DNA from: a virus
Lineage: Duplodnaviria; Caudoviricetes
Direction: 5' to 3' (one strand)
Length of the DNA: 63,652 nt
Virus record (IMG/VR): IMGVR_UViG_3300030109_004674
Span: 1-63,652 of that record
Positions 2,716 to 29,249 of this stretch are shown here, one piece after another. The notes beneath the pieces were generated by a model. It worked only from the letters and a program-made list of their open reading frames with translations, made no database searches and had not been told where the DNA came from. Position 1 is the first letter of the stretch. Each line of letters begins with the position of its first letter. The position numbers were made by a program, and so were the translations under genes.

Positions 2716-3615
2716 CTAATAAACAGTAATTTTATCAACCATATCAAAAGCTTTGTTATCTGCTTTGTATGCTGATCCAGTCATCTTGTTTTCCCACATG
2801 TCGTTCCTTCTATTCGAAACGTCTTTTGTTGTGTAGGAAGTCACACCAGAAAACAATCCCCACAATGTCTCACCTTTTTGAGCTTGCTCTTGTGCGATTC
2901 TTACGGTAAGGTTTTGGGCCTTCTTTATCTGGTTTGGACTGTATAATTTTTTTGCATCACTAACATCCGTTTCTATGTTTACACCTGTAATAGCTTGCAC
3001 CATTCTCACCGTCTCGTTAACTGAACACTTTGTCGCTGCCATTCTGTAAAACTTTTCGTAAAGAGTCTGCTCTTGCTCTCTTATCTTGTCCACACCTCTC
3101 ATTAAAAGGTCAACCTTGTCTCGCATGTTTGCAGAGTGTCTAATCCTGGTGTTCATTTCTTTGTACATTCTGTGAAATGTATTACTACATGACATTGTAA
3201 TGTTTGTCATTCCCAGGGCCAAACTTCCGGTTCCGTCGTGCGAATTCAGGACAGTTATATATTTTTTTATCTGGTCGTGGTTCTTACCTATGCCTTCTAT
3301 ACTTCCTGTGTCAATCTTTAGGTAAACTTTTCTACCTCCATGGAAAGATCCTCCTTTTGCTAGTGACAGGTCGCTTTGCTGTGCAATTTTGGAAACCATA
3401 TCTATTAGCTCCCAGTTCTGAAAAACCTCATAACCTTCTTTTGCGGCAAAAAACTCTTGGTTCGTGTCTTCTCTTCTAATCGAATAATAGTTCGACTCGA
3501 TTCCTTCTCCTGTGTAAAGCTTTTCCTTTTTTACGTTCCAGAAAAGCTGAAACCTATCGAGTAATTCTGCTACGAATTCTCCTTGGTTTTCAATTTGTTG
3601 TATTGATTGATTCAT
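2716..3615 (-). CDS. DUF932 / TIGR03299 phage-plasmid protein
   Basis: YEVFQNWEL, GGSFHGGRKVY, LNSHDGTGS, CSNT, RIRHS and GETLWGLFSGVT motifs. Confidence 0.85.
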   Translation of the reverse strand: MNQSIQQIENQGEFVAELLDRFQLFWNVKKEKLYTGEGIESNYYSIRREDTNQEFFAAKEGYEVFQNWELIDMVSKIAQQSDLSLAKGGSFHGGRKVYLKIDTGSIEGIGKNHDQIKKYITVLNSHDGTGSLALGMTNITMSCSNTFHRMYKEMNTRIRHSANMRDKVDLLMRGVDKIREQEQTLYEKFYRMAATKCSVNETVRMVQAITGVNIETDVSDAKKLYSPNQIKKAQNLTVRIAQEQAQKGETLWGLFSGVTSYTTKDVSNRRNDMWENKMTGSAYKADNKAFDMVDKITVY

Positions 3616-3671
3616 GATTGATAAGTTTTATAAGTTAAAAAATATTTTGTCTAAGTTAAACAAAGTTTTTA

Positions 3672-3890
3672 TTAAGACAAGTTTTTTGTTAAGATTTTTA
3701 CTTCATTATTTGAAATTATATCTAAAAGTTTTTTGTCTAGCTTGGCCCGTATTCTGTTTAACCTTTTGATATCAAATGATATAACACTGGTTTTCTTGGG
3801 TGCCGCTTCCAGGTCAGAGAGTTTCTGATCGAGAAGCATTAATAGTTCGACTAGTTCTGTTTGTCTTAATTCGTCTTTTTCGTTTGCCAT
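3672..3890 (-). CDS. Hypothetical protein
   Basis: 72-aa helical ORF in the early array. Confidence 0.6.
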   Translation of the reverse strand: MANEKDELRQTELVELLMLLDQKLSDLEAAPKKTSVISFDIKRLNRIRAKLDKKLLDIISNNEVKILTKNLS

Positions 3891-3902
3891 TGGGTTCGAT
3901 TT

Positions 3903-4199
3903 TTATATTAAACATTTTGAGATATAGGCTAAGGTACCAAATTGGTTTAACACAAATTGTCTATCTGGTATTGCTATAATTTTTCCATCGATCAAAGCTT
4001 TGAGCATACCCTGGTTTTCTGAATAGTCTTTTATAATTACTTCATCAGGCTGCAGGTTAACTCTGTCGGCCATGTTTATGGTGGCAACAGCTGCCCGTTG
4101 GTTCGTGTCCTTTTCGGTTAGTACCAGACAAATGTTTTTTGTTTCTGCGTACTTTTCTTTTTTTACCGTGTGCGGTTTGTTTCTGAATATTACTTCCAT
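3903..4199 (-). CDS. DUF4313-like hypothetical protein
   Basis: ATINM...IIKDYSENQGMLKALIDGKII pattern. Confidence 0.5.
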   Translation of the reverse strand: MEVIFRNKPHTVKKEKYAETKNICLVLTEKDTNQRAAVATINMADRVNLQPDEVIIKDYSENQGMLKALIDGKIIAIPDRQFVLNQFGTLAYISKCLI

Positions 4200-4211
4200 T
4201 TTATATAAGTT

Positions 4212-4475
4212 TTAAGGTTGTACAATTTTTTTAGTTACATACATTATTTGGTTATATCCGTCGCTGACGGTACCTGTGTATTTTTCGTCTACAATAAGGT
4301 TAAATATTTCAGGCAATGCGTATCTGAATTCTGGCTCTTCACCGTTTGAGCTATTCCAGAATAGTATATAGCTTTTGCTGCCTTCAATTTTATATACCGT
4401 GGTTTCTTGTAAGTCATCCTCTATTGAATGAGCGTATTTGTTTCTGTTTATCGATTTAATTAGTTCTTTATCCAT
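4212..4475 (-). CDS. Hypothetical protein
   Basis: 87-aa ORF with A-rich start context. Confidence 0.65.
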   Translation of the reverse strand: MDKELIKSINRNKYAHSIEDDLQETTVYKIEGSKSYILFWNSSNGEEPEFRYALPEIFNLIVDEKYTGTVSDGYNQIMYVTKKIVQP

Positions 4476-4486
4476 GGTTTTAAAGT

Positions 4487-4720
4487 TTATGTAAGGTTAT
4501 GAGGTTTGTTTAAATTCAATTTATTTAATGAGATTATTACCTCCTCTTCAATCTCTTCAATTCCTTCGTCTTGCATCTTGAGAAGAAATTCCTTGCAACG
4601 GTTATATAGTTTCCTTGCGTATTCTTTTTCCCTTTCTGACATGTATTCGTATTCAACGTCCGATAGGTCGTAAATTGCGTTTCCTAGTTCCTTGTGTGCG
4701 TATTCCATTGTCCTTGCCAT
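4487..4720 (-). CDS. Hypothetical protein
   Basis: 77-aa ORF preceded by a variant start motif (AAAACTTAAGATC-ATG). Confidence 0.65.
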   Translation of the reverse strand: MARTMEYAHKELGNAIYDLSDVEYEYMSEREKEYARKLYNRCKEFLLKMQDEGIEEIEEEVIISLNKLNLNKPHNLT

Positions 4721-4735
4721 GATCTTAAGTTTTAT

Positions 4736-4772
4736 GGGCCCAGGTGGCCCCTGGTTAGTTTACTTTTTGTTT
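4736..4772. repeat. 37-bp direct repeat, copy 1 (GGGCCC hairpin plus gene 3' end)
   Basis: gggcccaggtggcccctggttagtttactttttgttt, identical to 5006-5042. Confidence 0.95.
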
Positions 4773-4987
4773 TGTGCATGCTCTTGCATTGCTCCTATTA
4801 TCATGTTTAAATTATCCTTAGATAGCTTTTTAAACTCATCTAAGCCCATATAAGCTATTAATACATCTTTACATACGTTTACATCTTCTTGCTGCTTTGT
4901 AGCTTCTGTATTTTCGTTGTATAATTTAGTTTTATTAAAAGCTATATTTTCTAAATATTCTCCGTGGTGTCTTCTTACTTTGCTCAT
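4760..4987 (-). CDS. Hypothetical protein between 37-bp direct repeats
   Basis: 75-aa AT-rich ORF ending NKK* like its upstream neighbour. Confidence 0.65.
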   Translation of the reverse strand: MSKVRRHHGEYLENIAFNKTKLYNENTEATKQQEDVNVCKDVLIAYMGLDEFKKLSKDNLNMIIGAMQEHAQNKK

Positions 4988-5005
4988 TTTGTTTTGCTTT
5001 TAAAG

Positions 5006-5042
5006 GGGCCCAGGTGGCCCCTGGTTAGTTTACTTTTTGTTT
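5006..5042. repeat. 37-bp direct repeat, copy 2
   Basis: Identical to 4736-4772. Confidence 0.95.
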
Positions 5043-5488
5043 ATCCATTCGATTACCTGCTGCGGTGATCCTTTAAACAAAGTTTTATTTTTGTTTACAT
5101 AGTCACCTTTTTTGCTCATGTATCCCCGTGTCACTACATGAACTGTCAGCTCGTGTGTATCAAAGTCTCCAATTACTTTGTATTCGTAATTTTCCCAGTC
5201 CATTTTGCGGGGGGCTTCTAGGTATATATTTCCTGGCCCGTCTTTAAAGTGACTAACTACAGAAGCGGCCAAACATCCCATTCCGTTGAATATCATTCGT
5301 TCCTTTTTTCCTAGTCCGATTCCGTTCACTAGGTCTCCTCCCGATAAGTATTCACAAAGTTGTAGCCCATGGCCTTCCGGGTATCCGTCGAACTGCCTGT
5401 ACATTGCGACAATTTTGTTTGTTTTTCTTTGTCCTGTTTTCTCCGATTTATACGTTTGTATAAAAGTTGTTAATGATCTTGTTCCCAT
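5030..5488 (-). CDS. Conserved phage/plasmid hypothetical protein (MGTRS...YRQFDGYPEGHG family)
   Basis: 152 aa with the recurring DGYP motif seen in phage early genes. Confidence 0.7.
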   Translation of the reverse strand: MGTRSLTTFIQTYKSEKTGQRKTNKIVAMYRQFDGYPEGHGLQLCEYLSGGDLVNGIGLGKKERMIFNGMGCLAASVVSHFKDGPGNIYLEAPRKMDWENYEYKVIGDFDTHELTVHVVTRGYMSKKGDYVNKNKTLFKGSPQQVIEWINKK

Positions 5489-5515
5489 GATTGAAAAGTT
5501 TTAAAAGTTTGTTAT

Positions 5516-6316
5516 TTATTTATTTATTTGTGGGTCTACAATAAACCCAGATTTGATACTTTTTTGTTGTGCTGTTTTGCTTTTAATATTTTTTACTCTT
5601 AAGCCCGCGATGCTGGCCTTGGGTTCGTCCAAAAATCTAAGGTCTGTAACATCAGCGTCGAAAACTTCAAGGCCCATATATTTTTCTGGCAAAATTTTCC
5701 CCATAAAAGGTACTGCTACATTAAAACCTAGGTTTATAGCTTCTTGCCATTGCTCAAAATTTGATTCGCTGTAGCTAAAAGTAAGATGATAATTAGGTAC
5801 GTTTTTAAAGGTCTCTAAGCGGTTAAAAACTTTTGTGTAGTCGTAAAATTGAACGTCTTTAAAAGTCTCCAGGACGTTAAATAACCTTAGGTCTAAATCG
5901 CTGGTTCCGTTTAACCTTACGCTGTAATGCATGTTTTTTGCTTCTGCTTTTCTTTGTCCTGCTTTTATTTCCGCATGTAGCCAACTATTAAAAAACTTAC
6001 GGTTTGCGTAGAATAGCCATGTTTTTTTGAGTCTGCTATTAAGTATTGTATTTTTGGTGTCCATCTTTACACGTCCTGAAGTATTTAAACATCCTAAAAT
6101 GCATCCTTTGCTTGCCATGCTACAGGTATTGAAACCACTACTTTTATGTGGGGCCAAATAAAGTATACCAGAAAGGTAGTTTAGTTTGGCACCCTTTTTT
6201 ATTTTGCTGCTGCTGTTTAGGCCCATCAAATAAGATAGCCCCGTTTGTTTTTTAGCTGCTGCAATTGTTGTAAATTCAAGATCCTGAACTTGTTTTTTGT
6301 ACTGAAGAAAATTCAT
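5516..6316 (-). CDS. Gp88-like protein with a Cys cluster (possible Fe-S, radical-SAM-like fold)
   Basis: CSMASKGCILGCL, VRLNGTSD, QFYDYTK, NYHLTFS and DLRFLD motifs. Confidence 0.7.
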   Translation of the reverse strand: MNFLQYKKQVQDLEFTTIAAAKKQTGLSYLMGLNSSSKIKKGAKLNYLSGILYLAPHKSSGFNTCSMASKGCILGCLNTSGRVKMDTKNTILNSRLKKTWLFYANRKFFNSWLHAEIKAGQRKAEAKNMHYSVRLNGTSDLDLRLFNVLETFKDVQFYDYTKVFNRLETFKNVPNYHLTFSYSESNFEQWQEAINLGFNVAVPFMGKILPEKYMGLEVFDADVTDLRFLDEPKASIAGLRVKNIKSKTAQQKSIKSGFIVDPQINK

Positions 6317-6333
6317 GTTATAAGTTTTTAAAA

Positions 6334-6350
6334 GGGCCCGGGGGCCCGTT
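6334..6350 (-). repeat. GGGCCC intergenic hairpin
   Basis: AACGGGCCCCCGGGCCC-TTTT directly after a stop codon. Confidence 0.75.
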
Positions 6351-6351
6351 G

Positions 6352-6861
6352 TTAGTTTATTGTTAATGTTTCACCGTCGAAAGTTAGTGTATCAATTTTA
6401 GATAAAGAGTATTGTCTAAATTTCGTATGCTTTAATGTTTTGCGTATTATGTTTTTGGCAATTGTCAGGGGCCTAGAATTGACGGTTTTATATTCACCCT
6501 TTTGCACTACATTTTTTCGCACCTGGAGACCGTATATGTAAATTGTTTTAGTCTCAATATGCATGCGAATACCTGTGCAAAGTTGTACATAAGCGTCCTT
6601 TTGTCCCTGGCTCCGGTTTTTGGTTTGTTTCGTTGGTTTTGTAAGGGCCGTTAACAATTCGATTCTGGCTTTCTCTTCAATTGTTTCGTAGTCGTAACTG
6701 ATCCCTTTTAGTGTGTTTATATCCTTTTGTTTTGCGTTCTGGATGCTGGCCCCAACATTTAACAAAACTTTGCTTATTTCACCTTGTTTGTTTGTGTAGT
6801 TGTTAATTGCTACAAATTGCACCCCGTTAAATTGTTTTAGTTTGTTGATTAAGTTTTTCAT
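6352..6861 (-). CDS. Hypothetical protein (basic)
   Basis: 169 aa preceded by the canonical start motif. Confidence 0.75.
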   Translation of the reverse strand: MKNLINKLKQFNGVQFVAINNYTNKQGEISKVLLNVGASIQNAKQKDINTLKGISYDYETIEEKARIELLTALTKPTKQTKNRSQGQKDAYVQLCTGIRMHIETKTIYIYGLQVRKNVVQKGEYKTVNSRPLTIAKNIIRKTLKHTKFRQYSLSKIDTLTFDGETLTIN

Positions 6862-6878
6862 GATTGAAAAGTTTTAGA

Positions 6879-6916
6879 GGGGCCCAGCAAATGGTATGCA
6901 ATGGCCGGGCCCTGGT
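6879..6916 (-). repeat. 38-bp GGGCCC hairpin repeat, copy 1
   Basis: ggggcccagcaaatggtatgcaatggccgggccctggt; 37/38 identical to 9263-9300. Confidence 0.9.
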
Positions 6917-6923
6917 TAGTTTA

Positions 6924-7175
6924 TTATTTAGTTCTTATTATGTATCCTGGTTCTGAATTATCATTTCTATTAAACTCAAAGGCTATCCTTTCGTTTTTTT
7001 TCATGTCTAATAGTTTGTCGATTTGTTCCTGTATTGCGTACATGTATTCGTAATCATCCTCCTGGTCTGTTTTGGCGTAAATTTTTTCTAAATCTACTTT
7101 TACCTGGTAAACATCATTTTCGCAAATGATAATTAATTTCCATTTTCTGTAGCTGTTTATTTCTTTCTTTGCCAT
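6924..7175 (-). CDS. Hypothetical protein
   Basis: 83 aa preceded by the canonical start motif. Confidence 0.7.
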   Translation of the reverse strand: MAKKEINSYRKWKLIIICENDVYQVKVDLEKIYAKTDQEDDYEYMYAIQEQIDKLLDMKKNERIAFEFNRNDNSEPGYIIRTK

Positions 7176-7253
7176 GATTGATAAGTTTTAAAGTTTAGAT
7201 AAAAATATGTATTTAGTTTTACTTATGCAAATAAAAGTTTAAAAAAGTAAATA

Positions 7254-7550
7254 TTATATTCCAATTACTTGGGCTTCTGTCCTGTATTTTTTTAAATCGT
7301 TTATTGCATCTTTAAGAGACTCGCCCAGGGTTCCCAGTGTGAAGGCCCAGTCTTGAAAAGTTATTTCGATATATGGCACTACATGATCTGTGTTGATTTG
7401 TTTTTGGTAGTGCTTTATTGGCTTGCTTAGGGCTTTAACTGGTATTGAGTAATATTTGCCTCCATAACCTGAAGTTAAAAAGTTGTGACACTTGCCTGAT
7501 TTGCTTGGGCCCTGATATCGTTTTTCTGGTATCCTTATTATAATTTCCAT
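7254..7550 (-). CDS. Hypothetical protein
   Basis: 98-aa ORF. Confidence 0.65.
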   Translation of the reverse strand: MEIIIRIPEKRYQGPSKSGKCHNFLTSGYGGKYYSIPVKALSKPIKHYQKQINTDHVVPYIEITFQDWAFTLGTLGESLKDAINDLKKYRTEAQVIGI

Positions 7551-7702
7551 TTGAATCCTAAGTTTTCAGTTATTATGTATTGTTTTACGCTCGTTAGTGC
7601 AATGTGATTTGTACTAAGTTTTACGGCCATGTGGCCCAGGTCTACCCGGTGCTGTGTTTTGCCGTCGGGTACGTTCACTATTTGTTTTTTATACTTTTTC
7701 AT
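7538..7702 (-). CDS. Small hypothetical protein (54 aa, below track cutoff)
   Basis: MKKYKKQIVNVPDGKTQHRVDLGHMAVKL...FKWKL*; fills the gap and overlaps both neighbours. Confidence 0.55.
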   Translation of the reverse strand: MKKYKKQIVNVPDGKTQHRVDLGHMAVKLSTNHIALTSVKQYIITENLGFKWKL

Positions 7703-8255
7703 TTAGCTGTATGTTTTTGATTATGTTTTTTGAGTCTTCAATTAAACTTTCTTTGCTGTAGTATCCCCAACATGAGTCAACTTGTTCGTCGTTTTGGTTA
7801 TCAATAATTTCGTACCCTAAAACAGACCCAGTTATCCAAACGTCGTATGTTTTTACTTCAGATTCCAATAAGTTTTTTACATGTTCGATTGTTTTCTTTG
7901 TCAGTCTTTTAACCTGCATAGCTTCTCGGGCTTTTTGTTTATCGACGTAAATATATCCGATTTGCCCGCTGTCCCAAGGGCATGCAAACGGGCTTGTGCT
8001 TACCGTCTGTCCCGAGTGGTCGTACATGTAAATCGGCAAAATTACTGCAGCATTTTTTTGTAGTGTTTTTTTCAGGTCTTGCCATCCGCTATAGTCTTGG
8101 GCCCTGTGTTCGGTTTCGTCCCCTAGATGGTATCTTCTATGCTGACAAACCATTGTGCCCAGGTTGTCCCATTTGCGGGGGCTTTCTGCGTAGTGGTCTA
8201 CAAATATTTTTATTGTGTATCCTTTGTGTTCGATTGTTTCTAAAATTGTGTCCAT
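7689..8255 (-). CDS. Conserved phage/plasmid hypothetical protein (YDHSG...WDSGQIG family)
   Basis: SPRKWDNLG, YMYDHSG, CPWDSGQIG and DSCWGYY motifs. Confidence 0.75.
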   Translation of the reverse strand: MDTILETIEHKGYTIKIFVDHYAESPRKWDNLGTMVCQHRRYHLGDETEHRAQDYSGWQDLKKTLQKNAAVILPIYMYDHSGQTVSTSPFACPWDSGQIGYIYVDKQKAREAMQVKRLTKKTIEHVKNLLESEVKTYDVWITGSVLGYEIIDNQNDEQVDSCWGYYSKESLIEDSKNIIKNIQLNEKV

Positions 8256-8267
8256 GATTGATAAGTT

Positions 8268-8672
8268 TTAAGTTAATGATTCAAATATTAGTATTTTGTT
8301 TGCCTTGTCCAGCAATATTGTGAATAGTTCTGTGTCTGTCTGTCTGTCAATTAAAACCACTTGTTTGCCTTCTAGATAGCTGTAAATTTCATACTCTTTA
8401 TTTATTTCTATTGTCTGGCCCCGGTCTATATTTTTAACCGTTTTGTACTTTATAATTTTACACAAATCGTTTAAGAATTGAACGTCGTTGTTGAATATCT
8501 TTTGCAGCAGTTTTCGGTTTTTTTCCTTTTGTTCGATTAAATCCTGGTATACCTGGCCTCTGCTTTCTTTGTCCTCAAACCAGTCCGCAATTGTTTGGGC
8601 TGCGTCTTCAATTATTCGCTGTGACTCTTTAAGTCTCTTAATTAGCTTTTTGTTTTGTTCTGTTGTTCTCAT
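8268..8672 (-). CDS. Hypothetical protein
   Basis: 134 aa preceded by the canonical start motif. Confidence 0.7.
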   Translation of the reverse strand: MRTTEQNKKLIKRLKESQRIIEDAAQTIADWFEDKESRGQVYQDLIEQKEKNRKLLQKIFNNDVQFLNDLCKIIKYKTVKNIDRGQTIEINKEYEIYSYLEGKQVVLIDRQTDTELFTILLDKANKILIFESLT

Positions 8673-8684
8673 GATTGAAAAGTT

Positions 8685-8795
8685 TTAACGGTTTAAAATT
8701 AGTATCCATGTAACCAGGGCAGAAGCTATGCATATTAAAAATTCGTAATTTATTTGCCCGTCGTTATTTTCAAATATTTTTTTTACTTTATTCAT
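8685..8795 (-). CDS. Small membrane peptide (36 aa)
   Basis: MNKVKKIFENNDGQINYEFLICIASALVTWILILNR; A-rich start following the hairpin (track start 8909 overlaps the upstream gene). Confidence 0.55.
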   Translation of the reverse strand: MNKVKKIFENNDGQINYEFLICIASALVTWILILNR

Positions 8796-8811
8796 TTTAA
8801 AGAGTTTTAAA

Positions 8812-8834
8812 GGGGCCCAGTTTGGGCCCTGGTT
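8812..8834 (-). repeat. GGGCCC intergenic hairpin
   Basis: AACCAGGGCCCAAACTGGGCCCC-TTTAAAA. Confidence 0.8.
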
Positions 8835-9223
8835 TATGAAATTATTTTTATTGTTCCTGCTTCCTGTATGTATTCGAACGTGTCCCCATCTGCAGAATTC
8901 ACGGCCCAAATTGGCGTATAATAGTCGTGGTATCTGTTTCCCTGGTTCATAAATCCCACAAGGGCGAAATGTGTGAAATTTTCTAGTATTTCGGTTTCAC
9001 GGTTTCCAAACGGGTTATTCTTTCTTATTTTCCCCGTGGGTGATTTGTGCAGGTTTCTAAGGTATTTGATTCCGTCGTCCCCATCGATTAAATCGATATA
9101 AATTTGCTCGTTTAAAATTTCCGTGTCTGTCCCTGCGTTTAATCTACGCTTTACCAGCAAAACATCTTTGTAGTTGATTGATTCCGCTGTGATTAATTCC
9201 TGTGTGATTTGTTTCTTTGCCAT
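8834..9223 (-). CDS. Hypothetical protein
   Basis: 129 aa preceded by the canonical start motif. Confidence 0.7.
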   Translation of the reverse strand: MAKKQITQELITAESINYKDVLLVKRRLNAGTDTEILNEQIYIDLIDGDDGIKYLRNLHKSPTGKIRKNNPFGNRETEILENFTHFALVGFMNQGNRYHDYYTPIWAVNSADGDTFEYIQEAGTIKIIS

Positions 9224-9262
9224 GATTGATAAATTTTAGAGTTTAATTAATTGAGTTTTAAA

Positions 9263-9300
9263 GGGGCCCAGCAGATGGTATGCAATGGCCGGGCCCTGGT
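9263..9300 (-). repeat. 38-bp GGGCCC hairpin repeat, copy 2
   Basis: ggggcccagcagatggtatgcaatggccgggccctggt. Confidence 0.9.
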
Positions 9301-9308
9301 GTTTAGTG

Positions 9309-9692
9309 TTAAATAGTTTTTAATAGTTCATCAAATTGTCTTTTTTCCTCGTCTATTTTGTTTTGAACGTATTCCGCGTCCGTTACAAAAACGATTCTGT
9401 CCAGGTTTATTTTTGTTGTTTCGCTATCTCCAAACATGTTTGTCGTGTACAAGATCATTTGTTTATTGGTGATTTTGTCAATATTCATCTGGTCTCCTCT
9501 TAGGTCTAACATGTATTGTATCTCGCTATTTCTTATTGCGTAGATACTTGTCAATTCTCCCTCCATTCGGCCATGTTTAGCGTATTCAATTTTGATGCCT
9601 GAAATGTGTCTGAATTCCGATTTAGTCGGGTTTAACATGTAGAAGGTTTCACCTCTTTTTAATCTGTTGATAATTTCCGTTTTCGTGTACAT
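9309..9692 (-). CDS. Hypothetical protein
   Basis: 127 aa preceded by the canonical start motif. Confidence 0.7.
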   Translation of the reverse strand: MYTKTEIINRLKRGETFYMLNPTKSEFRHISGIKIEYAKHGRMEGELTSIYAIRNSEIQYMLDLRGDQMNIDKITNKQMILYTTNMFGDSETTKINLDRIVFVTDAEYVQNKIDEEKRQFDELLKTI

Positions 9693-9728
9693 GATTGATA
9701 AATTTTAGAGTTTATTAATTTGATTTGT

Positions 9729-9857
9729 TTAAATGTTTTTTATAATGGTGTCAATAATTCCGATATAAATTGCTACAGCTAACATTCCTAGCATTAGTAT
9801 TGCGAATAATGTTTCCGCGAAAAAGTCCGATAGTATAAAAGCGATTATTTTTTTCAT
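9729..9857 (-). CDS. Small membrane protein (42 aa), first gene of the early array
   Basis: MKKIIAFILSDFFAETLFAILMLGMLAVAIYIGIIDTIIKNI*; A-rich start context. Confidence 0.55.
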   Translation of the reverse strand: MKKIIAFILSDFFAETLFAILMLGMLAVAIYIGIIDTIIKNI

Positions 9858-9901
9858 TTTAATAAAGTTTTAAAGTTGTTGCTATTAGTTCGGCAACAGG
9901 A

Positions 9902-9933
9902 CAATGATACGACGCATTATTGAATAAAGCAAA
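9902..9933 (-). promoter_or_regulatory. Putative Bacteroidota sigma70-type promoter for the early array
   Basis: TTTG-N20-TATCATTG, one mismatch to the TTTG-N19/21-TAnnTTTG consensus. Confidence 0.55.
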
Positions 9934-10187
9934 TAAAAGTTTAACTAAGGAAACTAACAAACGGCCTGGAGTCAATAAATACAGGGGTTTGAAGAGTTTA
10001 AAATTTGTTGTCGTTGTTAACTAATTGTTAACAGGTTAGGCCATTAAGAGCAAAACGGGGGACAAATAGCAGGTTAAAATTGTTCTAAGTGGTTGAGATT
10101 GTGGTAGTTGTGGGTGTTGGGTGATGTTTTTTTCCGTGGACGGCCAGACGGCCAAAAAGCCCCATAAATAAGCTACACGACGTCCTG

Positions 10188-10212
10188 TAAGTCACTGAAA
10201 ATCAATACGTTA
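10188..10212. promoter_or_regulatory. IHF-like binding site (overlapping inverted pair)
   Basis: AATCAATACGTTA (10200-10212) matches WATCAANNNNTTR; near-match TTTCAGTGACTTA on the opposite strand. Confidence 0.45.
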
Positions 10213-10413
10213 GCTGTCCTGGGCTGAGATGGTGGGGCCCCGTCGCAAAAAAAGGATTGTTATTGCTGTGATGGCTTGGCCTGGTTAAAGTTACCGATTT
10301 TCTCCTGAAAGGCTAGGGGTCGGTTCATTATAGTAATACCCCCCGACACACCAACTTCACATTTGACAGGGTATCAAAACCCTAAAGTACTGATGCACAT
10401 ACCGTTAAGCTTA

Positions 10414-10540
10414 TGCAGATGCATTGCAAGTGCATTACACATGTATTACAAGTGCATTAGTTTCGCATTGCAGATGTAATGCATACCCCATGCGGATGCA
10501 ATACAAAGGAGAAGAGAAGAGAGAAGAAGAGAGAAAAGAA
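10414..10540 (+). repeat. Iteron-like array B: eight 11-bp units plus a 36-nt purine tract (candidate origin)
   Basis: TGCAGATGCAT TGCAAGTGCAT TACACATGTAT TACAAGTGCAT TAGTTTCGCAT TGCAGATGTAA TGCATACCCCA TGCGGATGCAA, then AAAGGAGAAGAGAAGAGAG... Confidence 0.8.
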
Positions 10541-10719
10541 TATTAGTTAGCACAGCTAGCTTTTTAGTAATGCCATAATACATAATTCCGAAGGATAAAT
10601 GTAGACATGGTTTACTAGTATGAGAAAATAGATATATAGGGGAAATAATTAGTTATACTGATGGTCAGGCATTTAAGGGTTAAATAGCGTATTTGAGATT
10701 AATACAATTTGTCACTGTC

Positions 10720-10749
10720 TTGATTACAAAGGAATTTTTCATATATTTG
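10720..10749 (+). promoter_or_regulatory. Bacteroidota sigma70-type promoter
   Basis: TTG-N19-TATATTTG. Confidence 0.75.
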
Positions 10750-10753
10750 ATTA

Positions 10754-10818
10754 GGAATGATTTTCCATGAATATAAGTTTTAGAGTTTGGGGGGAGGAGT
10801 GATTACCTCCCCTTTTTT
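10754..10818 (+). ncRNA. Candidate small antisense RNA complementary to early-gene start regions
   Basis: Bounded by a consensus promoter and an intrinsic terminator; core TTCCATGAATATAAGTTTTAGAGTTT mirrors the early start motif; 5' end estimated. Confidence 0.55.
10789..10818 (+). terminator. Intrinsic terminator immediately upstream of the HNH gene
   Basis: GGGGAGG-agtgatta-CCTCCCC-TTTTTT. Confidence 0.75.
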
Positions 10819-10822
10819 GAAT

Positions 10823-11197
10823 ATGGGTAAAGAAAAAAGTAAGAGCTGGAAAAGCTACGGAAATAAGCTGCCGAGTAATGATAAAGAGTGCTTCTATTGT
10901 GGCTCTAGATTATGGGAAGGCAATCGAACTACCGACCACATTATTCCAAAAAGTAAAGGCGGTATCCTATCTAACGACAACAAAGTATATTCCTGTAAAA
11001 GATGTAATAGCTTAAAACAGGATCACTCCGTTAAGGACTTCGAAGGTATTATCAAGTTTATGGTAAGAGAGATGGATAAAGACCATGAGGCTAAAATGGA
11101 ATACTACCGTAATATTTTAATATCTCTAGAGAAGTTAAGAAAGAACAAGACGGCCAATGGAAAGACAGCTAAAGGTATTTCAAGCGATAAAGGATGA
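10823..11197 (+). CDS. HNH endonuclease (terminase-associated position)
   Basis: CFYC...TTDHIIPKSKGG...N...CKRCN; ATG at 10823 preferred over TTG at 10787, which runs through the terminator. Confidence 0.85.
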   Translation: MGKEKSKSWKSYGNKLPSNDKECFYCGSRLWEGNRTTDHIIPKSKGGILSNDNKVYSCKRCNSLKQDHSVKDFEGIIKFMVREMDKDHEAKMEYYRNILISLEKLRKNKTANGKTAKGISSDKG

Positions 11198-11702
11198 ATG
11201 TGACCGCATTGATGCTAATGTTCAATTAGAGCACGTCTATGTGATGGATAAACACACAGGGGAGTTTATACCTGTCCTAGCTGTTCTCAACGAACAAGCA
11301 CAGTTTGTATTGCAGAAGATTAGAAAAGCAATAAGGTACAAACCGGATTACGTTACGGCTTACCAGGCAAGCTCTACTGATATGGCTAAAGAATTAACCG
11401 GAAGCGAAGCAAAGGTACTTTTTTATCTGATTGGTAAAATGACTTACAACAACCTGGTAAAAGGAATTACAATGAGGGGGCTATCAAAAGGAATAGGTAT
11501 CGGTGTAAACACGGCCAAGGATGCAATTGATGGTTTAGCCCAAAAGAACTTTGTTATGATAACAGGGAAGAACATCAGGAGGACGTATCACGTAAACCCT
11601 TCTATTGTTTGGAAGGGATCGATTTACAAGAAGAAGCAGAAAGTGGATATGTTTTTTGATAACAATATCAAGGATGCAGTGGCTGCTTATAATGAAAAAT
11701 AA
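11157..11702 (+). CDS. RepL-like winged-HTH DNA-binding protein (initiator, regulator or TerS candidate)
   Basis: AKVLFYLIGKMTYNN...LSKGIGIGVNTAKDAIDGL...YHVNPSIVWKG. Confidence 0.6.
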   Translation: MERQLKVFQAIKDECDRIDANVQLEHVYVMDKHTGEFIPVLAVLNEQAQFVLQKIRKAIRYKPDYVTAYQASSTDMAKELTGSEAKVLFYLIGKMTYNNLVKGITMRGLSKGIGIGVNTAKDAIDGLAQKNFVMITGKNIRRTYHVNPSIVWKGSIYKKKQKVDMFFDNNIKDAVAAYNEK

Positions 11703-11740
11703 AATTTTGAAAAACCCTACGGGTTGTTAAGCTTGATTAT

Positions 11741-13765
11741 ATGAACCTAGGAGGCATACCTTTTTCCGCATGGAAACCTGATCATCGGCCTTTGGAATAT
11801 CCGAAGGAATTTGTCAAATGGATTGACTCTATCAATTCAGGATGGCAGAATAAAATTGATTACGAGCCTTACAACAAATGGCAGGAGCAAGCGGAGATAT
11901 GGCTACGTGATAAAACCGACATCACAGATTTTCACGATGTTGACGAACAAGCAAACTTTATTATATCTGAATACCTGAAATGTAGAGGTAACTCTCTTTA
12001 CTACTGCAACAAGCACGGATTCCTGAAAGAAGGAGACGTAGATGGAGGAGGAGTTAAGTTTGATGCATGGGAAGCCCAAAAGATAACACTGTTCCTAGCC
12101 GACTGCGGATACAACATGATGATCGGTAAAGCAAGACAGATTGGATTTACATCCACACTAGGTTTGCTCGCAGGTAAAAGAATTAATTTCAATAACTCGT
12201 ATTACGTAAAGTTTGTAACCCATACCAAGGATAAAGGGGAGGAAATTTTTCGTGATAAAATCAAGTGGGCTTTTGGTAGAGTGCCGGGGTATCTTAGGAA
12301 TGAGGTATACAACGATGCACACAACATGTTATCTCTTCAGGAAAAAGGAAAGAAAGGGGAATCAGGAGGAGCCAATTCTAGAGCAGAGGTAGTTACACCA
12401 TCTGTGGATGCAATAAACGGTGGTCAACCAAACCTTATCCTTATGGATGAGATTGGGCTAATGGATGTATTTACCGCTATGATGAAAGAAGGTAGACCTG
12501 CTTTATTCTTCTACAATCCCAAAACCAAACAAATGGAAATGAAGCGACAACTTATCGCTTGGGGTACAGGTGGGGAAATGGATAAAGGTGGTGCCGTATT
12601 CGAAGTAGAGTTTAAAGCCGCATACAAAGCCTGGAGAGAAAAAAATTATAACTACGGAATCATACCGCTATTCTTTGATGCATACGCAAGGGAAGGTATG
12701 ACCAGAGATATTATTGAAAAAGAAAAATTATACTACTATTCCGTTACAGGAGTAGAGGCTGAAAGAAGTAAGGTGCAATTTCACCAGCACTATCCAATGT
12801 CTATCGATGACATGTTTCTTCGTAAGTCCGCAACCATATTGCCTATCCATGAAATAAACAAACACATAAATAAAATCTATATGCTCAAGGAAGGTGATGA
12901 GCCTTCGTATGGATACTTCCAGCCCATATACGACATAAACGAACCAACACCTGATTTGTTTTTAAAGTATAAAGTTACAGGGGTAGAGTTTGTGAAGACT
13001 AAAGGAATACAGGACGAAAGAACAACATCAGTAATATGGAGGCACCCTGAAGAGAATTGGGAGTTCAGATACTACCAGGGAACTGACCCTATTAACTCTG
13101 AAACAGGTAAATCCAAAATGTCAACCGCAGTATGGGACGCACTTGCAATGTCTCCTGCGTGTGTAGTTAACTGGAGAATCAGGTCTTACAAGGAATGTTA
13201 TCTGCAATGCATACTTGCAGGAATGTATTACAACGTGGACAATCGTGAAACTAAAGATCTTGTCGAATCCAATATTGGTGATTCTTATTTGGATTTTAGA
13301 GAAATGCATGGATTTGAAAGAGGTGTTGTAGCTAACGCAGATTTGCCAATGTCTTTGCAAGGGGGGTCTGCAAAGTGGTGGGGTATATCCAACAAAGCAT
13401 CTACTGCAGGAAGGATTACAAACAGGATTATTGAAATGATTGAATTATATGCCGACAACATATACATTCCATGGTTCTGGATACAATGTAAAACATTTGT
13501 CGAGAAGTCTTTGAAAGGAACAACCTCGCACAGACAAAGTAGATTTCAAGCAGCTGATTTGAAGTTTGATTTTGATGATGTTATATTCTCAATAACTTAT
13601 GCGTATATTAATGCAGACGCACACAATAGATTTGAGCCAAGAAAAATTAGTGGTGCAAAATCGAACAAAGTGTTTACAAAGTACGTTCAGAATAGAGAAA
13701 CCAACTTTCAAATGCGTCTAGCACAGGTGAATGACAAAGGAGAGGTTGTTAAGTATCTTAATTAA
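11741..13765 (+). CDS. terL: Terminase large subunit
   Basis: Walker A region GKARQIGFT, Walker B LILMDE, coupling motif GTG, nuclease residues GTDP and FDDVI. Confidence 0.9.
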   Translation: MNLGGIPFSAWKPDHRPLEYPKEFVKWIDSINSGWQNKIDYEPYNKWQEQAEIWLRDKTDITDFHDVDEQANFIISEYLKCRGNSLYYCNKHGFLKEGDVDGGGVKFDAWEAQKITLFLADCGYNMMIGKARQIGFTSTLGLLAGKRINFNNSYYVKFVTHTKDKGEEIFRDKIKWAFGRVPGYLRNEVYNDAHNMLSLQEKGKKGESGGANSRAEVVTPSVDAINGGQPNLILMDEIGLMDVFTAMMKEGRPALFFYNPKTKQMEMKRQLIAWGTGGEMDKGGAVFEVEFKAAYKAWREKNYNYGIIPLFFDAYAREGMTRDIIEKEKLYYYSVTGVEAERSKVQFHQHYPMSIDDMFLRKSATILPIHEINKHINKIYMLKEGDEPSYGYFQPIYDINEPTPDLFLKYKVTGVEFVKTKGIQDERTTSVIWRHPEENWEFRYYQGTDPINSETGKSKMSTAVWDALAMSPACVVNWRIRSYKECYLQCILAGMYYNVDNRETKDLVESNIGDSYLDFREMHGFERGVVANADLPMSLQGGSAKWWGISNKASTAGRITNRIIEMIELYADNIYIPWFWIQCKTFVEKSLKGTTSHRQSRFQAADLKFDFDDVIFSITYAYINADAHNRFEPRKISGAKSNKVFTKYVQNRETNFQMRLAQVNDKGEVVKYLN

Positions 13766-13792
13766 CTAGATGATTTGTATAAGAAAAAAAAT

Positions 13793-13800
13793 TATATTTG
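13793..13800 (+). promoter_or_regulatory. TAnnTTTG (-7) promoter element
   Basis: TATATTTG in the intergenic gap. Confidence 0.55.
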
Positions 13801-13880
13801 TGAATAGTAATACTGTGCAGAGTTTTTTATAACTGTACTGAAGAACTGCATTTCTTCTGTATTAACTAAATATTTTAATC

Positions 13881-14663
13881 ATGGCAAAAAAAAATTACGA
13901 CGTAGCCGTACTTAACACTCTGCAAGCTTCGGGAGCAGATATTGTTATTTCAAATGGAAAAGTGTCGCTGGACTCAGGAGCAGCAGACCAAATTTTACCG
14001 ATACAATGGAAGAATATTGTGTCTTATTCAAAAACATCTTATGCAGCAGGTACTGCCGAAAAAGAGTATATTGATTTTACAGCAATTACTCCAGCAGCTA
14101 ATACCGAGTACACACTTTCAGTTAAGCATAACGGAAAAACAAGAACGTACTCCATGATTGGTAAAACCGCACCTACTAACGCTGCAGCAATTGTTACAGC
14201 TATTGTAGCTGATGTAAACAATGATCCTAACGCTGTTGTAACTGCAGTTGCTTCAACAAACGTAGTTCAGCTTACAATGAAGGCTTCGGCTTTATCAGGA
14301 GGAGGTATTACTTCATCATCAGCTGGTGCATCGGTTACTACAAATACTGCTTTTGTAGCTCCGGCAGGAAGTGCTGCTGAAGTTGAAGCAGCTAGAAAAG
14401 GGGCATCACAAACTAATGGAGAGTACACTAAGTATTCTATTATTTACGATAAGCCTGTTTCGCATAACGCTATTAGTGGACAAAAAGCTTTCTTGGAAGT
14501 AGAAGCTGTAATTTATGTTCGTGAAGGTGCAACAAACTTCTCTGATTTAGAAACAGATATTGACCAAATTTTAGCTCAAACAGCATCTTCCGGATCTAGA
14601 GGTTTGGATACCGCAAGCATTGCAGCATTAGCAGGGTCTGTAAAGAATTATATTACTATTTAA
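13881..14663 (+). CDS. Probable virion structural protein (capsid auxiliary/decoration candidate)
   Basis: Ala/Thr-rich, beta-like 260 aa with its own promoter and terminator. Confidence 0.55.
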   Translation: MAKKNYDVAVLNTLQASGADIVISNGKVSLDSGAADQILPIQWKNIVSYSKTSYAAGTAEKEYIDFTAITPAANTEYTLSVKHNGKTRTYSMIGKTAPTNAAAIVTAIVADVNNDPNAVVTAVASTNVVQLTMKASALSGGGITSSSAGASVTTNTAFVAPAGSAAEVEAARKGASQTNGEYTKYSIIYDKPVSHNAISGQKAFLEVEAVIYVREGATNFSDLETDIDQILAQTASSGSRGLDTASIAALAGSVKNYITI

Positions 14664-14668
14664 AAAAC

Positions 14669-14694
14669 GGGGGAGTATACCTCCCCTTCTTTTT
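14669..14694 (+). terminator. Intrinsic terminator
   Basis: GGGGGAG-tatac-CTCCCCT-TCTTTTT. Confidence 0.7.
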
Positions 14695-14709
14695 ATCGTA
14701 AAATGAGAA

Positions 14710-15285
14710 ATGAGTAAAGAGTTAGTAATTTCATTATTTGAACCATCCAAGCGAGATATGAAGCTGGATTATCCAGAACTCGCAGATGTAGAAGAATTTG
14801 AGGAATTAAACGCAAGAGAATTAAAGTTTTGTTGGTATGTAGGAAATCGTACTAGCCCTTTAGCAAAACTGGACAAAAAGATTAGAGTTGTGCAAGCAGC
14901 TGAAACTGCGTTTGAAGGATACCGAAGAGATAAATCGATGATAGACGGTTTACGAAAAGGAATTATACCTTCAAAGCTAAAGCTGGCAATTGCAAAAATG
15001 ACTACTTATGTTCCAACTGTAAGACTAAAAGCAAAGTTAAATACCGAGTATATTTTTGAAGCAATGCAAGATCTTGTTATAATTGACAAGCAAACCAGGA
15101 AGATGATGACTGGTGATGAAAAGAAAGAATATCAAGCATTACTATCTAAGGTATCGGCAGATTTGCCAAAACTTGTAGATAGGATAGAAGGTGGTTTCGG
15201 TATTAAGATAGTTGAGAAAAACAATCGTAAAGCTGAAGTTAAGATATCGCTTAAAGATGTTTTATCAGAAATAGACCAAGATTAA
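14710..15285 (+). CDS. Hypothetical protein (head module)
   Basis: 191 aa directly before the portal. Confidence 0.7.
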   Translation: MSKELVISLFEPSKRDMKLDYPELADVEEFEELNARELKFCWYVGNRTSPLAKLDKKIRVVQAAETAFEGYRRDKSMIDGLRKGIIPSKLKLAIAKMTTYVPTVRLKAKLNTEYIFEAMQDLVIIDKQTRKMMTGDEKKEYQALLSKVSADLPKLVDRIEGGFGIKIVEKNNRKAEVKISLKDVLSEIDQD

Positions 15286-15296
15286 AACTTTAAAGT

Positions 15297-17564: not shown

Positions 17565-17575
17565 ACATTTATTGA

Positions 17576-17583
17576 TATATTTG
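17576..17583 (+). promoter_or_regulatory. TAnnTTTG (-7) promoter element for scaffold-MCP
   Basis: TATATTTG in the intergenic gap. Confidence 0.55.
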
Positions 17584-17613
17584 CGTATATTGTCATGTAA
17601 AATGTAATGAAAT

Positions 17614-18888: not shown

Positions 18889-18925
18889 TTATTAATTAGT
18901 TAACAAAAAGTAAAAAAGAAAAAAA

Positions 18926-20161: not shown

Positions 20162-20177
20162 TACTTAATTTATACAG

Positions 20178-20207
20178 AAAGCCTGCTCATAATTGGGCAG
20201 GCTTTTT
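20178..20207 (+). terminator. Intrinsic terminator after MCP
   Basis: AAAGCCTGCTCA-taat-TGGGCAGGCTTTTT. Confidence 0.85.
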
Positions 20208-20229
20208 AAAACAACGTAAGAAAAGATAA

Positions 20230-21015: not shown

Positions 21016-21026
21016 AAACATAAAAG

Positions 21027-21788: not shown

Positions 21789-21790
21789 TT

Positions 21791-23312: not shown

Positions 23313-23314
23313 GA

Positions 23315-28411: not shown

Positions 28412-28438
28412 AGGCAAGTTTATATGGCTTAAATTAGT

Positions 28439-28446
28439 TAAATTTG
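28439..28446 (+). promoter_or_regulatory. TAnnTTTG (-7) promoter element
   Basis: TAAATTTG in the intergenic gap. Confidence 0.5.
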
Positions 28447-28475
28447 ATTATACACAATTTAAAAGGTTAATAGTT

Positions 28476-29237
<762 letters not shown>

Positions 29238-29249
29238 ATTTATTTAGTA

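What the first reader, a model, noticed from the sequence alone, without database searches (positions are those of the whole stretch)
10720..10818. Candidate master antisense sRNA: one ~65-nt RNA complementary to the shared start motif of the early array
Seen: a consensus promoter (TTG-N19-TATATTTG) is followed about 40 nt later by an intrinsic terminator. The enclosed sequence TTTTCCATGAAT-ATAAGTTTTAGAGTTT aligns with the plus strand (antisense to mRNA) at early starts: 9223 TTTGCCATGATTGATAAATTTTAGAGTTT, 7175 TTTGCCATGATTGATAAGTTTTAAAGTTT, 8255 TCCATGATTGATAAGTTTTAAGTT, 6861 TTTTCATGATTGAAAAGTTTTAGAG, 4199 TTCCATTTTATATAAGTTTTAAGGTT. Several differences would be G-U wobbles, and pairing covers the AUG and the A-rich region. 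Read on the minus strand it starts only a 5-codon ORF, so it does not serve a real gene. Known: Bacteroidota initiate translation from A-rich, SD-less regions, so masking them should block translation. Inference: a trans-acting sRNA that silences about ten early genes at once, and any new cassette adopting the motif would join the regulon. sRNA plus cassette array may be an undescribed regulatory system.
Basis: partly seen in the sequence, partly recalled or inferred. Interest (0 to 1): 0.85.

Follow-up and report, generated by a model that had tools for sequence, protein, structure and literature searches.

The report
Late-operon leader RNA antisense to early starts
At the head of this phage's DNA-packaging operon, a host-type promoter and a strong terminator enclose about 65 bases that mirror the start region shared by many early genes, so the short RNA could switch those genes off, though this is untested and it may be only a regulatory leader.

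Summary
A perfect Bacteroidota-type promoter (TTG-N19-TATATTTG, 10720-10749) lies 39 nt before the best-scoring intrinsic terminator found in the scanned parts of the window (hairpin 10789-10814, T6 10813-18). The enclosed bases carry an intact, ORF-less copy of the start module repeated before the left-hand early genes, in antisense orientation. The predicted RNA has an unpaired 5' part of about 34 nt. It pairs at -15 kcal/mol or better with 11 of 21 left-array start regions, against 0 of 29 plus-strand genes, 1 of 24 right-block genes and none of 200 shuffles on the array mean.

That pairing follows from family membership: the antisense of real family members pairs as well or better (the orphan ranks 8th of 24). 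The unit is also the only canonical promoter ahead of HNH-terminase, and its terminator ends 4 nt before the HNH ATG, so it must also be that operon's leader. In the one relative that covers the site (L004), the promoter's upstream/-33 part and a leader hairpin persist, but the pairing segment does not.

My reading: a late-operon leader/attenuator carrying a captured early-start module (0.45), versus a functional multi-target antisense RNA (0.33). No RNA data could be obtained.

The parts
10720..10749 (+). Bacteroidota sigma-A-type promoter: -33 TTG (10720-22), 19-nt spacer, -7 box TATATTTG (10742-49)
   Evidence: The consensus TTTG/TAHHTTTG and the 4-5 nt spacing to the transcription start come from passages of PMC6847099. 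The region upstream of and including -33 is 74% identical in L004, against a 41% background.
10754..10788 (+). Predicted unpaired 5' part of the RNA (start inferred at 10754/10755). It is antisense to the early start module from about -22 to +13.
   Evidence: Fold. Duplex energies and coverage. The transcription start is inferred from the -7 box and was not observed.
10751..10788 (-). Orphan copy of the early start module: AAACTCTAAAACTTAT (10788-10773), ATG 10768-10766, 5 codons, TAA 10753-10751
   Evidence: 0 mismatches to the 15-nt consensus. It has one base fewer than the canonical copies between the core and the ATG.
10789..10818 (+). Intrinsic terminator: stem GGGGGGAGG/CCTCCCCTT, 8-nt loop, T6 (10813-18). 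It terminates only + strand transcription, because the minus-strand tail is AAACUCU.
   Evidence: Hairpin energy is about -16 kcal/mol.
10823..11197 (+). HNH endonuclease gene, first gene of the rightward block (then the unnamed ORF 11157-11702, which sits where a small terminase gene would, and the large-terminase gene 11741-13765). Its ATG is 4 nt after the end of the terminator's T-run.
   Evidence: PHROG HNH families, best 1.3e-13; Pfam HNH_5, 9e-12; the annotated terminase large subunit lies under the weak tblastn match of 11741-13765. The ORF at 11157-11702 has no family match.
3613..9714 (-). The 8 canonical copies of the start module at early ATGs (3613-3637, 5486-5510, 6859-6883, 7173-7197, 8253-8277, 8670-8694, 9221-9245, 9690-9714). 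Looser copies lie at the starts 4199, 4475, 4720, 6316, 7550, 8794 and 9857.
10757..10802 (+). Two mini-ORFs inside the leader: ATG 10757 (8 codons, TAG 10781-83) and ATG 10767 (11 codons, TGA 10800-02, in the hairpin loop). They could couple translation to termination. Nothing shows that they are used.
   Evidence: Read directly.

Best explanation
The segment is the promoter, the roughly 65-nt leader and the promoter-proximal terminator of the rightward HNH-terminase-structural block.

Host RNA polymerase starts at about 10754. Most transcripts stop at the T6 tract (10813-18) and give a short leader RNA. The rest read through, either through leakiness or through a phage factor, and express HNH and the terminase gene(s).

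The leader's 5' part is a captured copy of the hairpin-plus-start module that precedes the early genes. The copy may persist through the same gene conversion that homogenises the other copies.

Shown: the sequence anatomy, the class of TATATTTG boxes in front of other rightward genes, the lack of room for another promoter, and partial conservation of the promoter and leader hairpin in L004.

Inferred: the transcription start, termination, read-through, and the lack of a necessary trans function.
For: - TATATTTG is the -7 box at 5 non-coding sites that face genes: 10742, 13793, 17576 and 39960 on +, 53235 on -. That is 5 of the 8 copies in the window, although only 6.5% of the window is non-coding.
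- No other TAHHTTTG lies on the + strand between 9858 and the HNH ATG, and the terminator ends 4 nt before that ATG. Any canonical-promoter transcript of HNH must therefore cross the hairpin.
- The same arrangement recurs at 14669-14695, a strong terminator about 15 nt before the next ATG with no promoter between them. Read-through of terminators therefore seems normal in this block.
- In L004 (large terminase 79% identical) the region upstream of and including -33 is 74% identical against a 41% background. A TAGTTTTG box follows the TTG at 20 nt, and a 6-bp hairpin plus T-rich tail sits about 25 nt before the first + gene.
- The orphan shows no sign of optimisation as a regulator: it ranks 8th of 24.
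- Module copies are up to 100% identical over 37 nt and 96% over 47 nt, which is consistent with gene conversion keeping copies alike.
Against: - A perfect-consensus promoter followed at about +35 by the best-scoring terminator found is wasteful for a mere leader, unless the short RNA is itself a product or termination is regulated.
- No antiterminator gene was identified, and I did not search for one.
- A passive relic placed at random in the 965-nt gap would fall inside the 65-nt leader only about 7% of the time (my arithmetic).
- A relic of a leftward gene start 35 nt from the HNH ATG would have had no room for its own promoter.
- The orphan is one of the 4 best-preserved copies, which is unexpected for unselected sequence.
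- The L004 -7 box has G at -10, which PMC6847099 reports as virtually never seen.
Confidence: 0.45

Rival explanations
1. The terminated ~65-nt RNA, and possibly the same sequence at the 5' end of the late mRNA, acts in trans. Its unpaired 5' part pairs over about -22 to +15 with the start regions of roughly a dozen early mRNAs. That blocks 30S binding in an SD-less host, or creates double-stranded RNA for cleavage. Early genes would be shut off when host-type (late) promoters fire.
For: - Unpaired 34-nt 5' part followed by a terminator hairpin.
- Duplex energies: left array mean -15.0 kcal/mol with 11 of 21 at -15 or better; plus block -8.1 with 0 of 29; right block -9.4 with 1 of 24. For 200 dinucleotide shuffles of the seed the mean is -9.6 +/- 1.1 and the best is -12.6.
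- In 15 of the 18 listed duplexes all three AUG bases are paired, with 14-29 pairs per duplex.
- At the two transition-polymorphic motif positions (Y in AACTYTAAAAYTT) the orphan carries C, so the RNA's G can pair with both alleles. This is 2 of 2 and weak.
- The orphan is well preserved although it has no ORF.
- Strong promoter plus strong terminator.
- AAAACT within -22..-1 is class-specific: 10 of 21 in the left array, 3 of 24 in the right block and 1 of 29 in the plus block, against 1.5% of random windows.
- The left array has no canonical host -7 box in non-coding DNA on its own strand, so host-type promoters may mark a different temporal class.
Against: - The pairing is what any antisense copy of the family would give. 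Seven real members do better on the mean.
- The seed is at background identity in L004 (35%), and the L004 leader pairs poorly with this phage's motif (mean -12.1). L004's own early array is not on its contig, so covariation is untested rather than failed.
- No transcript data (closed) and no Rfam family.
- One RNA would have to titrate about 12 mRNA species.
- The timing is unknown: a consensus host promoter could fire from the first minute.
Confidence: 0.33
2. A passive relic. The motif copy is a leftover of a recombination or duplication at the edge of the cassette array. The promoter match and the terminator serve only the neighbouring operon, or the promoter match is chance, and the RNA, if made, does nothing.
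For: - The full promoter pattern occurs at the chance rate across the genome: 6 against 5.8.
- The copy includes an ATG and gene-like first codons, as a truncated gene start would.
- Recent exchange among module copies.
- No conservation of the segment in L004.
Against: - The joint arrangement of promoter, intact motif and terminator within 100 nt.
- The TATATTTG box class is clearly non-random in non-coding DNA.
- The copy has zero mismatches to the 15-nt consensus.
- Phage genomes rarely keep inert sequence.
Confidence: 0.14
3. The element works on the minus strand or as DNA. It could be an early-class promoter or start signal that drives a leftward non-coding transcript across 9858-10765. 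It could also be a protein-binding or recombination site that marks the boundary of the cassette array.
For: - The orphan has the full module order seen elsewhere on the minus strand: hairpin 3' arm ending in C's, then TCTAAAACTT, then ATG.
- The early array lacks canonical host -7 boxes, so the shared motif could be part of a non-host promoter.
- The 900-nt gap carries conserved blocks and repeats.
Against: - The spacing from the core to the ATG is 5-9 nt in every copy, which fits a translation signal better than a promoter.
- No minus-strand promoter candidate lies to the right of 10788. Only the hairpin and the HNH start are there.
- The hairpin has a T-tract only on the + strand.
Confidence: 0.08

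Closest known systems
Phage lambda PR'-tR' leader (6S RNA) with Q antitermination (recalled, not from a call)
   Same: A host-type promoter directly ahead of the late block, a terminator inside the leader, a short terminated RNA, and downstream genes that need read-through.
   Different: No Q-like gene or Q-binding element was identified here. The leader is about 65 nt rather than about 194 nt. The host type is Bacteroidota-like. The leader also mirrors a repeated early-gene start, and lambda's 6S RNA is not known to do that.
P1/P7 c4 and P4 CI immunity RNAs (recalled)
   Same: A small phage RNA that pairs with short repeated target sequences in other phage transcripts, so it has more than one target site.
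   Different: Those RNAs are processed from the operon that they control, act on 2 sites, and serve prophage immunity. Here the RNA would be a primary transcript from the opposite strand with about a dozen targets at translation starts in an apparently lytic genome.
Lambda OOP and P22 sar cis-antisense RNAs (OOP is named in passages of PMC4933390; sar is recalled)
   Same: A short phage antisense RNA with its own promoter and terminator.
   Different: Those overlap their single target gene. Here only a 5-codon stub lies opposite, and all the targets lie elsewhere.
T4 RegA translational repressor (recalled; the T4 review PMC3014915 was seen only in a search listing)
   Same: One factor that shuts off many early mRNAs by occupying their start regions.
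   Different: RegA is a protein that recognises a loose motif. Here the proposed factor is an RNA and the motif is a 20-25 nt near-identical block.
T4-type PeSL cassettes: early promoter plus stem-loop repeats that mediate module shuffling (recalled)
   Same: Repeated hairpin-plus-signal modules between small early genes, with copies kept alike by recombination.
   Different: The repeated signal here abuts the ATG and shows no host promoter box. None of this explains the orphan's placement inside a + strand transcription unit.
PAK_P3 sRNA1/sRNA2 (passages of PMC4933390)
   Same: Abundant ~100-nt RNAs from intergenic regions of a virulent phage, made late in infection.
   Different: No targets have been assigned to them. 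The host and the phage are unrelated. The paper's supplementary tables could not be opened.

Membership tests
Bacteroidota sigma-ABfr promoter (-33 TTTG / -7 TAHHTTTG) | -7 element TAHHTTTG with no G at positions 3 and 4 | tested here: met
   TATATTTG at 10742-10749. The definition is from PMC6847099.
Bacteroidota sigma-ABfr promoter (-33 TTTG / -7 TAHHTTTG) | -33 TTG about 19 nt upstream; transcript start 4-5 nt after the box | tested here: inconclusive
   TTG at exactly 19 nt. The start site cannot be observed with these tools. The paper notes that -33 is weakly conserved.
Intrinsic (Rho-independent) terminator | G+C-rich stem-loop immediately followed by a U-tract on the transcribed strand | tested here: met
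   9 pairs (6 G-C), 8-nt loop, T6. Ranked first in the scans of 3000-14000 and 10001-30000. About -16 kcal/mol.
Intrinsic (Rho-independent) terminator | Transcripts actually end there | not testable with these tools
Trans-acting base-pairing sRNA | A discrete, independently expressed small transcript | not testable with these tools
   No RNA data could be reached.
Trans-acting base-pairing sRNA | An accessible seed with complementarity to targets beyond controls | tested here: met
   One search shows that this equals family membership rather than optimisation.
Trans-acting base-pairing sRNA | Seed conserved, or covarying with its targets, in relatives | tested here: inconclusive
   The seed is 35% identical in L004 against a 41% background. 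L004's early genes are not on its 5.5-kb contig. No other relative covers the site.
Lambda-type late leader with antitermination | Promoter, then terminator, then late genes, with no promoter in between | tested here: met
Lambda-type late leader with antitermination | A phage antiterminator and its recognition site | not tested
   No search for Q-like proteins was run. The few early proteins scanned gave no such Pfam hit.
cis-antisense RNA (OOP/sar type) | Overlaps a real gene on the opposite strand | tested here: not met
   Only a 5-codon ORF lies opposite.
Any curated RNA family (Rfam 15) | A covariance-model match | tested here: not met
   No hit at gathering score in the whole window. Only a spurious mir-33 match at 10414-10489 at E up to 1.

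The most novel reading that the evidence does not exclude
The leader of the late packaging operon doubles as a master antisense RNA. When host-type late promoters fire, the abundant terminated 65-nt leader, and the 5' end of the late mRNA, pair across the AUG of about a dozen early mRNAs that share a 20-25 nt start module. In a host that has no Shine-Dalgarno step to fall back on, this would silence the whole early class at once. Any cassette that recombines in behind the module would join the regulon automatically. That would be a one-RNA early-to-late switch.
Probability: 0.3. Interest if true: 0.8.

Novelty: new variant of a known kind. Interest (0 to 1): 0.55.

Why it matters
Temporal shut-off of early genes in phages is known to work through proteins (RegA-type repressors, changes to the polymerase) or through single-target cis-antisense RNAs.

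A primary transcript that silences a whole gene class through a shared start module would be a new regulatory logic. It would be the first such case I know of for a phage of an SD-less, Bacteroidota-type host; my four literature searches surfaced no example, but they were not exhaustive. It would also tie cassette shuffling to regulon membership.

Under the more sober reading the finding still has value. It is a clear candidate for a promoter-proximal attenuator at the head of a packaging operon in an uncultured marine-type phage lineage, and it gives a compact set of parts (promoter, terminator, start module) that can be tested in Flavobacterium or Bacteroides reporters.

Tried and rejected
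1. Relatives for covariation.
- Large-terminase searches in IMG/VR (13 loci), metagenomes (13 loci) and GTDB genomes (none).
- A search with the ORF at 11157-11702 in IMG/VR (none).
- An early-protein search (8 loci, all unrelated phages without the motif).
- Only L004 reaches the leader. L002/L045 (67%) has the same divergent layout but SD-like sites and no motif. L051 (47%) has a TATATTTG box 5 nt before its large-terminase ATG and no leader hairpin.

2. Motif scans of IMG/VR.
- Start motif: 29 single, chance-like hits and no arrays.
- Hairpin-module junction: 0 hits.
- Conserved A-rich 16-mer: 114 or more stretches. All 113 newly fetched loci were screened (79, 34). Two (L099, L172) hold the known distant relative; the rest are not relatives.
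- Promoter-region pattern: first typed with the wrong spacing (0 hits), then corrected (L004 only).

3. Cultured phages: blastn found none. tblastn with the large terminase found only 23%-identical Morganella phages.

4. Rfam and tRNA scans found nothing real.

5. A gapless position weight matrix built from the 8 canonical copies misses the orphan because of its 1-nt deletion. I used a shorter consensus instead.

6. The idea that the giant 2805-aa protein is a virion RNA polymerase, which would explain why the early array lacks host promoters, found no support. There were no Pfam, PHROG or PDB hits and no DxDGD motif, and the Atlas returned only unnamed viral clusters. The question stays open.

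7. The idea that early mRNAs invade the terminator stem was considered and dropped without computation. Only CCCC is available for pairing, and an intramolecular hairpin forms faster.

8. An alternative genetic code for the 5-codon ORF was rejected on sight, because all three stop codons occur within 60 nt.

Full report
SETTING. The window is a complete IMG/VR virus record of 63,652 bp, rated 92% complete and linear.
- Small ORFs run leftward on the minus strand from 9857 to 3.
- A 965-bp gap without genes follows (9858-10822).
- A rightward block then starts with an HNH endonuclease (ATG 10823; PHROG and Pfam HNH hits). Next come an unnamed 181-aa ORF (11157-11702, no family match), a 674-aa gene whose only database match lies under an annotated large terminase, and a portal gene. 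The block runs to about 51.8 kb.
- A second minus-strand block (51.8-63.5 kb) holds a primase/helicase and a replication initiator.
- SD-like 4-mers occur before 6 of 79 ORFs, against 9.6% of random windows, and A at -3 occurs in 45 of 79. This fits the SD-less initiation of Bacteroidota described in PMC6847099 (abstract and passages).
- No cultured relative exists in the phage collection.

THE OBSERVATION.
- The promoter is TTG (10720-22), 19 nt, TATATTTG (10742-49).
- By the 4-5 nt rule of PMC6847099, the transcript would start at 10754/10755.
- The hairpin 10789-10814 with T6 (10813-18) is ranked first in both terminator scans that cover it.
- The RNA would be about 65 nt long. Its first 34 nt are predicted to be unpaired and the rest forms the hairpin at about -16 kcal/mol. 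The whole-molecule z-score is unremarkable at -0.8.
- On the minus strand the same bases read AAACTCTAAAACTTAT-ATTC-ATG plus 4 codons and a stop.

THE REPEATED MODULE.
- Eight early genes carry a near-identical 25-nt block that ends in ATG. There are 8 hits against 0.05 expected, with matrix scores of 27-37.
- Seven more carry looser versions in which the core AAAACTT lies 5-9 nt before the ATG.
- In six modules a G+C hairpin directly precedes the core.
- Copies are homogenised: 37 nt at 100% identity (4736/5006) and 47 nt at 96% (6870/9254).
- The core is class-specific. AAAACT within -22..-1 occurs in 10 of 21 left-array genes, 3 of 24 right-block genes and 1 of 29 plus-strand genes, against 1.5% of random windows.
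- The orphan at 10773-10787 matches the 15-nt consensus with no mismatch. It is one of 4 such copies and the only one without a gene.

PAIRING TESTS.
- With RNAduplex, the 5' part (10754-10788) pairs with -30..+20 of the left-array genes at a mean of -15.0 kcal/mol (11 of 21 at -15 or better).
- The plus block gives -8.1 (0 of 29) and the right block -9.4 (1 of 24).
- For 200 dinucleotide shuffles of the seed the mean is -9.6 +/- 1.1, and none falls below -12.6.
- The duplexes span about -22 to +15. All three AUG bases are paired in 15 of the 18 cases listed.
- The control that matters is different. I took the antisense of each real start region over the same -21..+13 window and paired it with the other 22-23 hand-listed starts. 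The orphan ranks 8th of 24 by mean energy.
- The pairing therefore shows membership of the repeat family. It does not show design as a regulator.

WHAT THE PROMOTER AND TERMINATOR ARE FOR.
- The full pattern TTG-N18-20-TAnnTTTG is at the chance rate in the window: 6 hits against 5.8 +/- 2.1.
- The exact box TATATTTG, however, has 5 of its 8 copies in the 4,134 nt of non-coding DNA, each facing the next gene: 10742, 13793, 17576 and 39960 on +, 53235 on -. That makes it a real promoter class.
- It is the only TAHHTTTG on the + strand between 9858 and HNH, and the terminator ends 4 nt before the HNH ATG. Canonical transcription of HNH and the terminase gene(s) must therefore cross the hairpin.
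- The next strong + terminator (14669-14695) is likewise followed within about 15 nt by the next ATG, with no promoter between them.
- The unit is therefore at least a leader with an attenuating terminator. I recall the lambda PR'-tR' arrangement as the nearest analogue.
- The left array has no TAHHTTTG box in non-coding DNA on its own strand. The best candidate is a one-mismatch TTTATTTG with a TTTG at -33 (9937), inside a 16-mer that recurs at about 7235.

COMPARATIVE EVIDENCE. Only L004 (5.5-kb contig, large terminase 79% identical) covers the site.
- Its intergenic DNA aligns with the window.
- The region upstream of and including -33 is 74% identical, against 41% for the bulk of the gap.
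- A TAGTTTTG box follows the TTG at 20 nt.
- A 6-bp hairpin (AGGGAG/CTCCCT) with a T-rich tail lies about 25 nt before the first + ORF.
- The segment aligned to the seed is 35% identical and about 13 nt longer.
- L004's early genes are off the contig, so covariation of seed and targets cannot be judged.
- All other searches for relatives failed.

VERDICT.
- The anatomy is real and non-random, and a short RNA is probably made.
- The evidence best supports a leader/attenuator of the packaging operon that carries a captured early-start module (0.45).
- The functional multi-target antisense RNA remains a live and attractive rival (0.33). The unit is oddly strong for a mere leader, the orphan is unusually well kept, and the motif is class-specific.
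- A passive relic (0.14) and a minus-strand or DNA-level role (0.08) are less likely.
- The named comparisons with lambda 6S/Q, P1 c4, P4 CI, P22 sar, T4 RegA and T4 PeSL rest on my recall. PAK_P3 and OOP rest on passages of PMC4933390.

Noticed in passing
window 10412-10545 and 1733-1772; L002 4365-4430; L004 575-660: Runs of 11-nt-spaced TGCATTGCA/ATGCAA-type repeats followed by a purine tract lie in the big gap. They recur directly upstream of the gene 1030-1716, whose product has a DnaA C-terminal helix-turn-helix domain (Pfam, 1.1e-16). Similar repeats sit at the same place in two relatives. They could be iterons of an origin or operator sites for that protein.
   Followed up: partly
window 10247-10264 and 10314-10355: An 18-mer, AAAAAAAGGATTGTTATT, is identical in L004, and its first 17 nt are identical in the 47%-identity relative (loci L013/L014/L051/L052). 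A 42-nt block is 86% identical in L004. These are the best-conserved non-coding pieces of the control region, and their function is unknown.
   Followed up: partly
window 4736-4772 / 5006-5042 and 6870-6916 / 9254-9300: The G+C hairpin modules between early genes have copies that are 100% and 96% identical. This indicates recent gene conversion or cassette exchange. Their T-richer tails lie on the + strand, so they could also stop antisense transcription through the array.
   Followed up: partly
window 9928-9943 and 7226-7241 (minus strand): The left array has no canonical host -7 box in non-coding DNA. The only candidates are two copies of TTAAACTTTTATTTGC, a one-mismatch box. The class of RNA polymerase that reads the early genes is open.
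   Followed up: partly
window 31487-39904, 23315-28411, 41042-44806: Giant ORFs of 2805, 1698 and 1254 aa in the structural block have no family hit in the searches run (PHROG for all three; Pfam and PDB for the 2805-aa one only). The Atlas search of the 2805-aa protein's C-terminal 2005 residues found only unnamed viral clusters, the nearest named one carrying LPD38 at a score of 0.90.
   Followed up: partly
window 13793-14695: A self-contained unit: a TATATTTG box, one 260-aa gene without any family hit, and a strong bidirectional terminator, directly followed by the next gene. It is probably a very highly expressed protein.
   Followed up: no
L064 8001-11400: An unrelated phage has its own repeated start block (…TATAATGAGGTTATAAAATG) before many small genes. 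Repeated start modules in early arrays are therefore not unique to this phage.
   Followed up: no
L051 7815-7840: In a 47%-identity relative, a TATATTTG box ends 5 nt before the large-terminase ATG. This implies a nearly leaderless packaging mRNA and no leader hairpin there.
   Followed up: no
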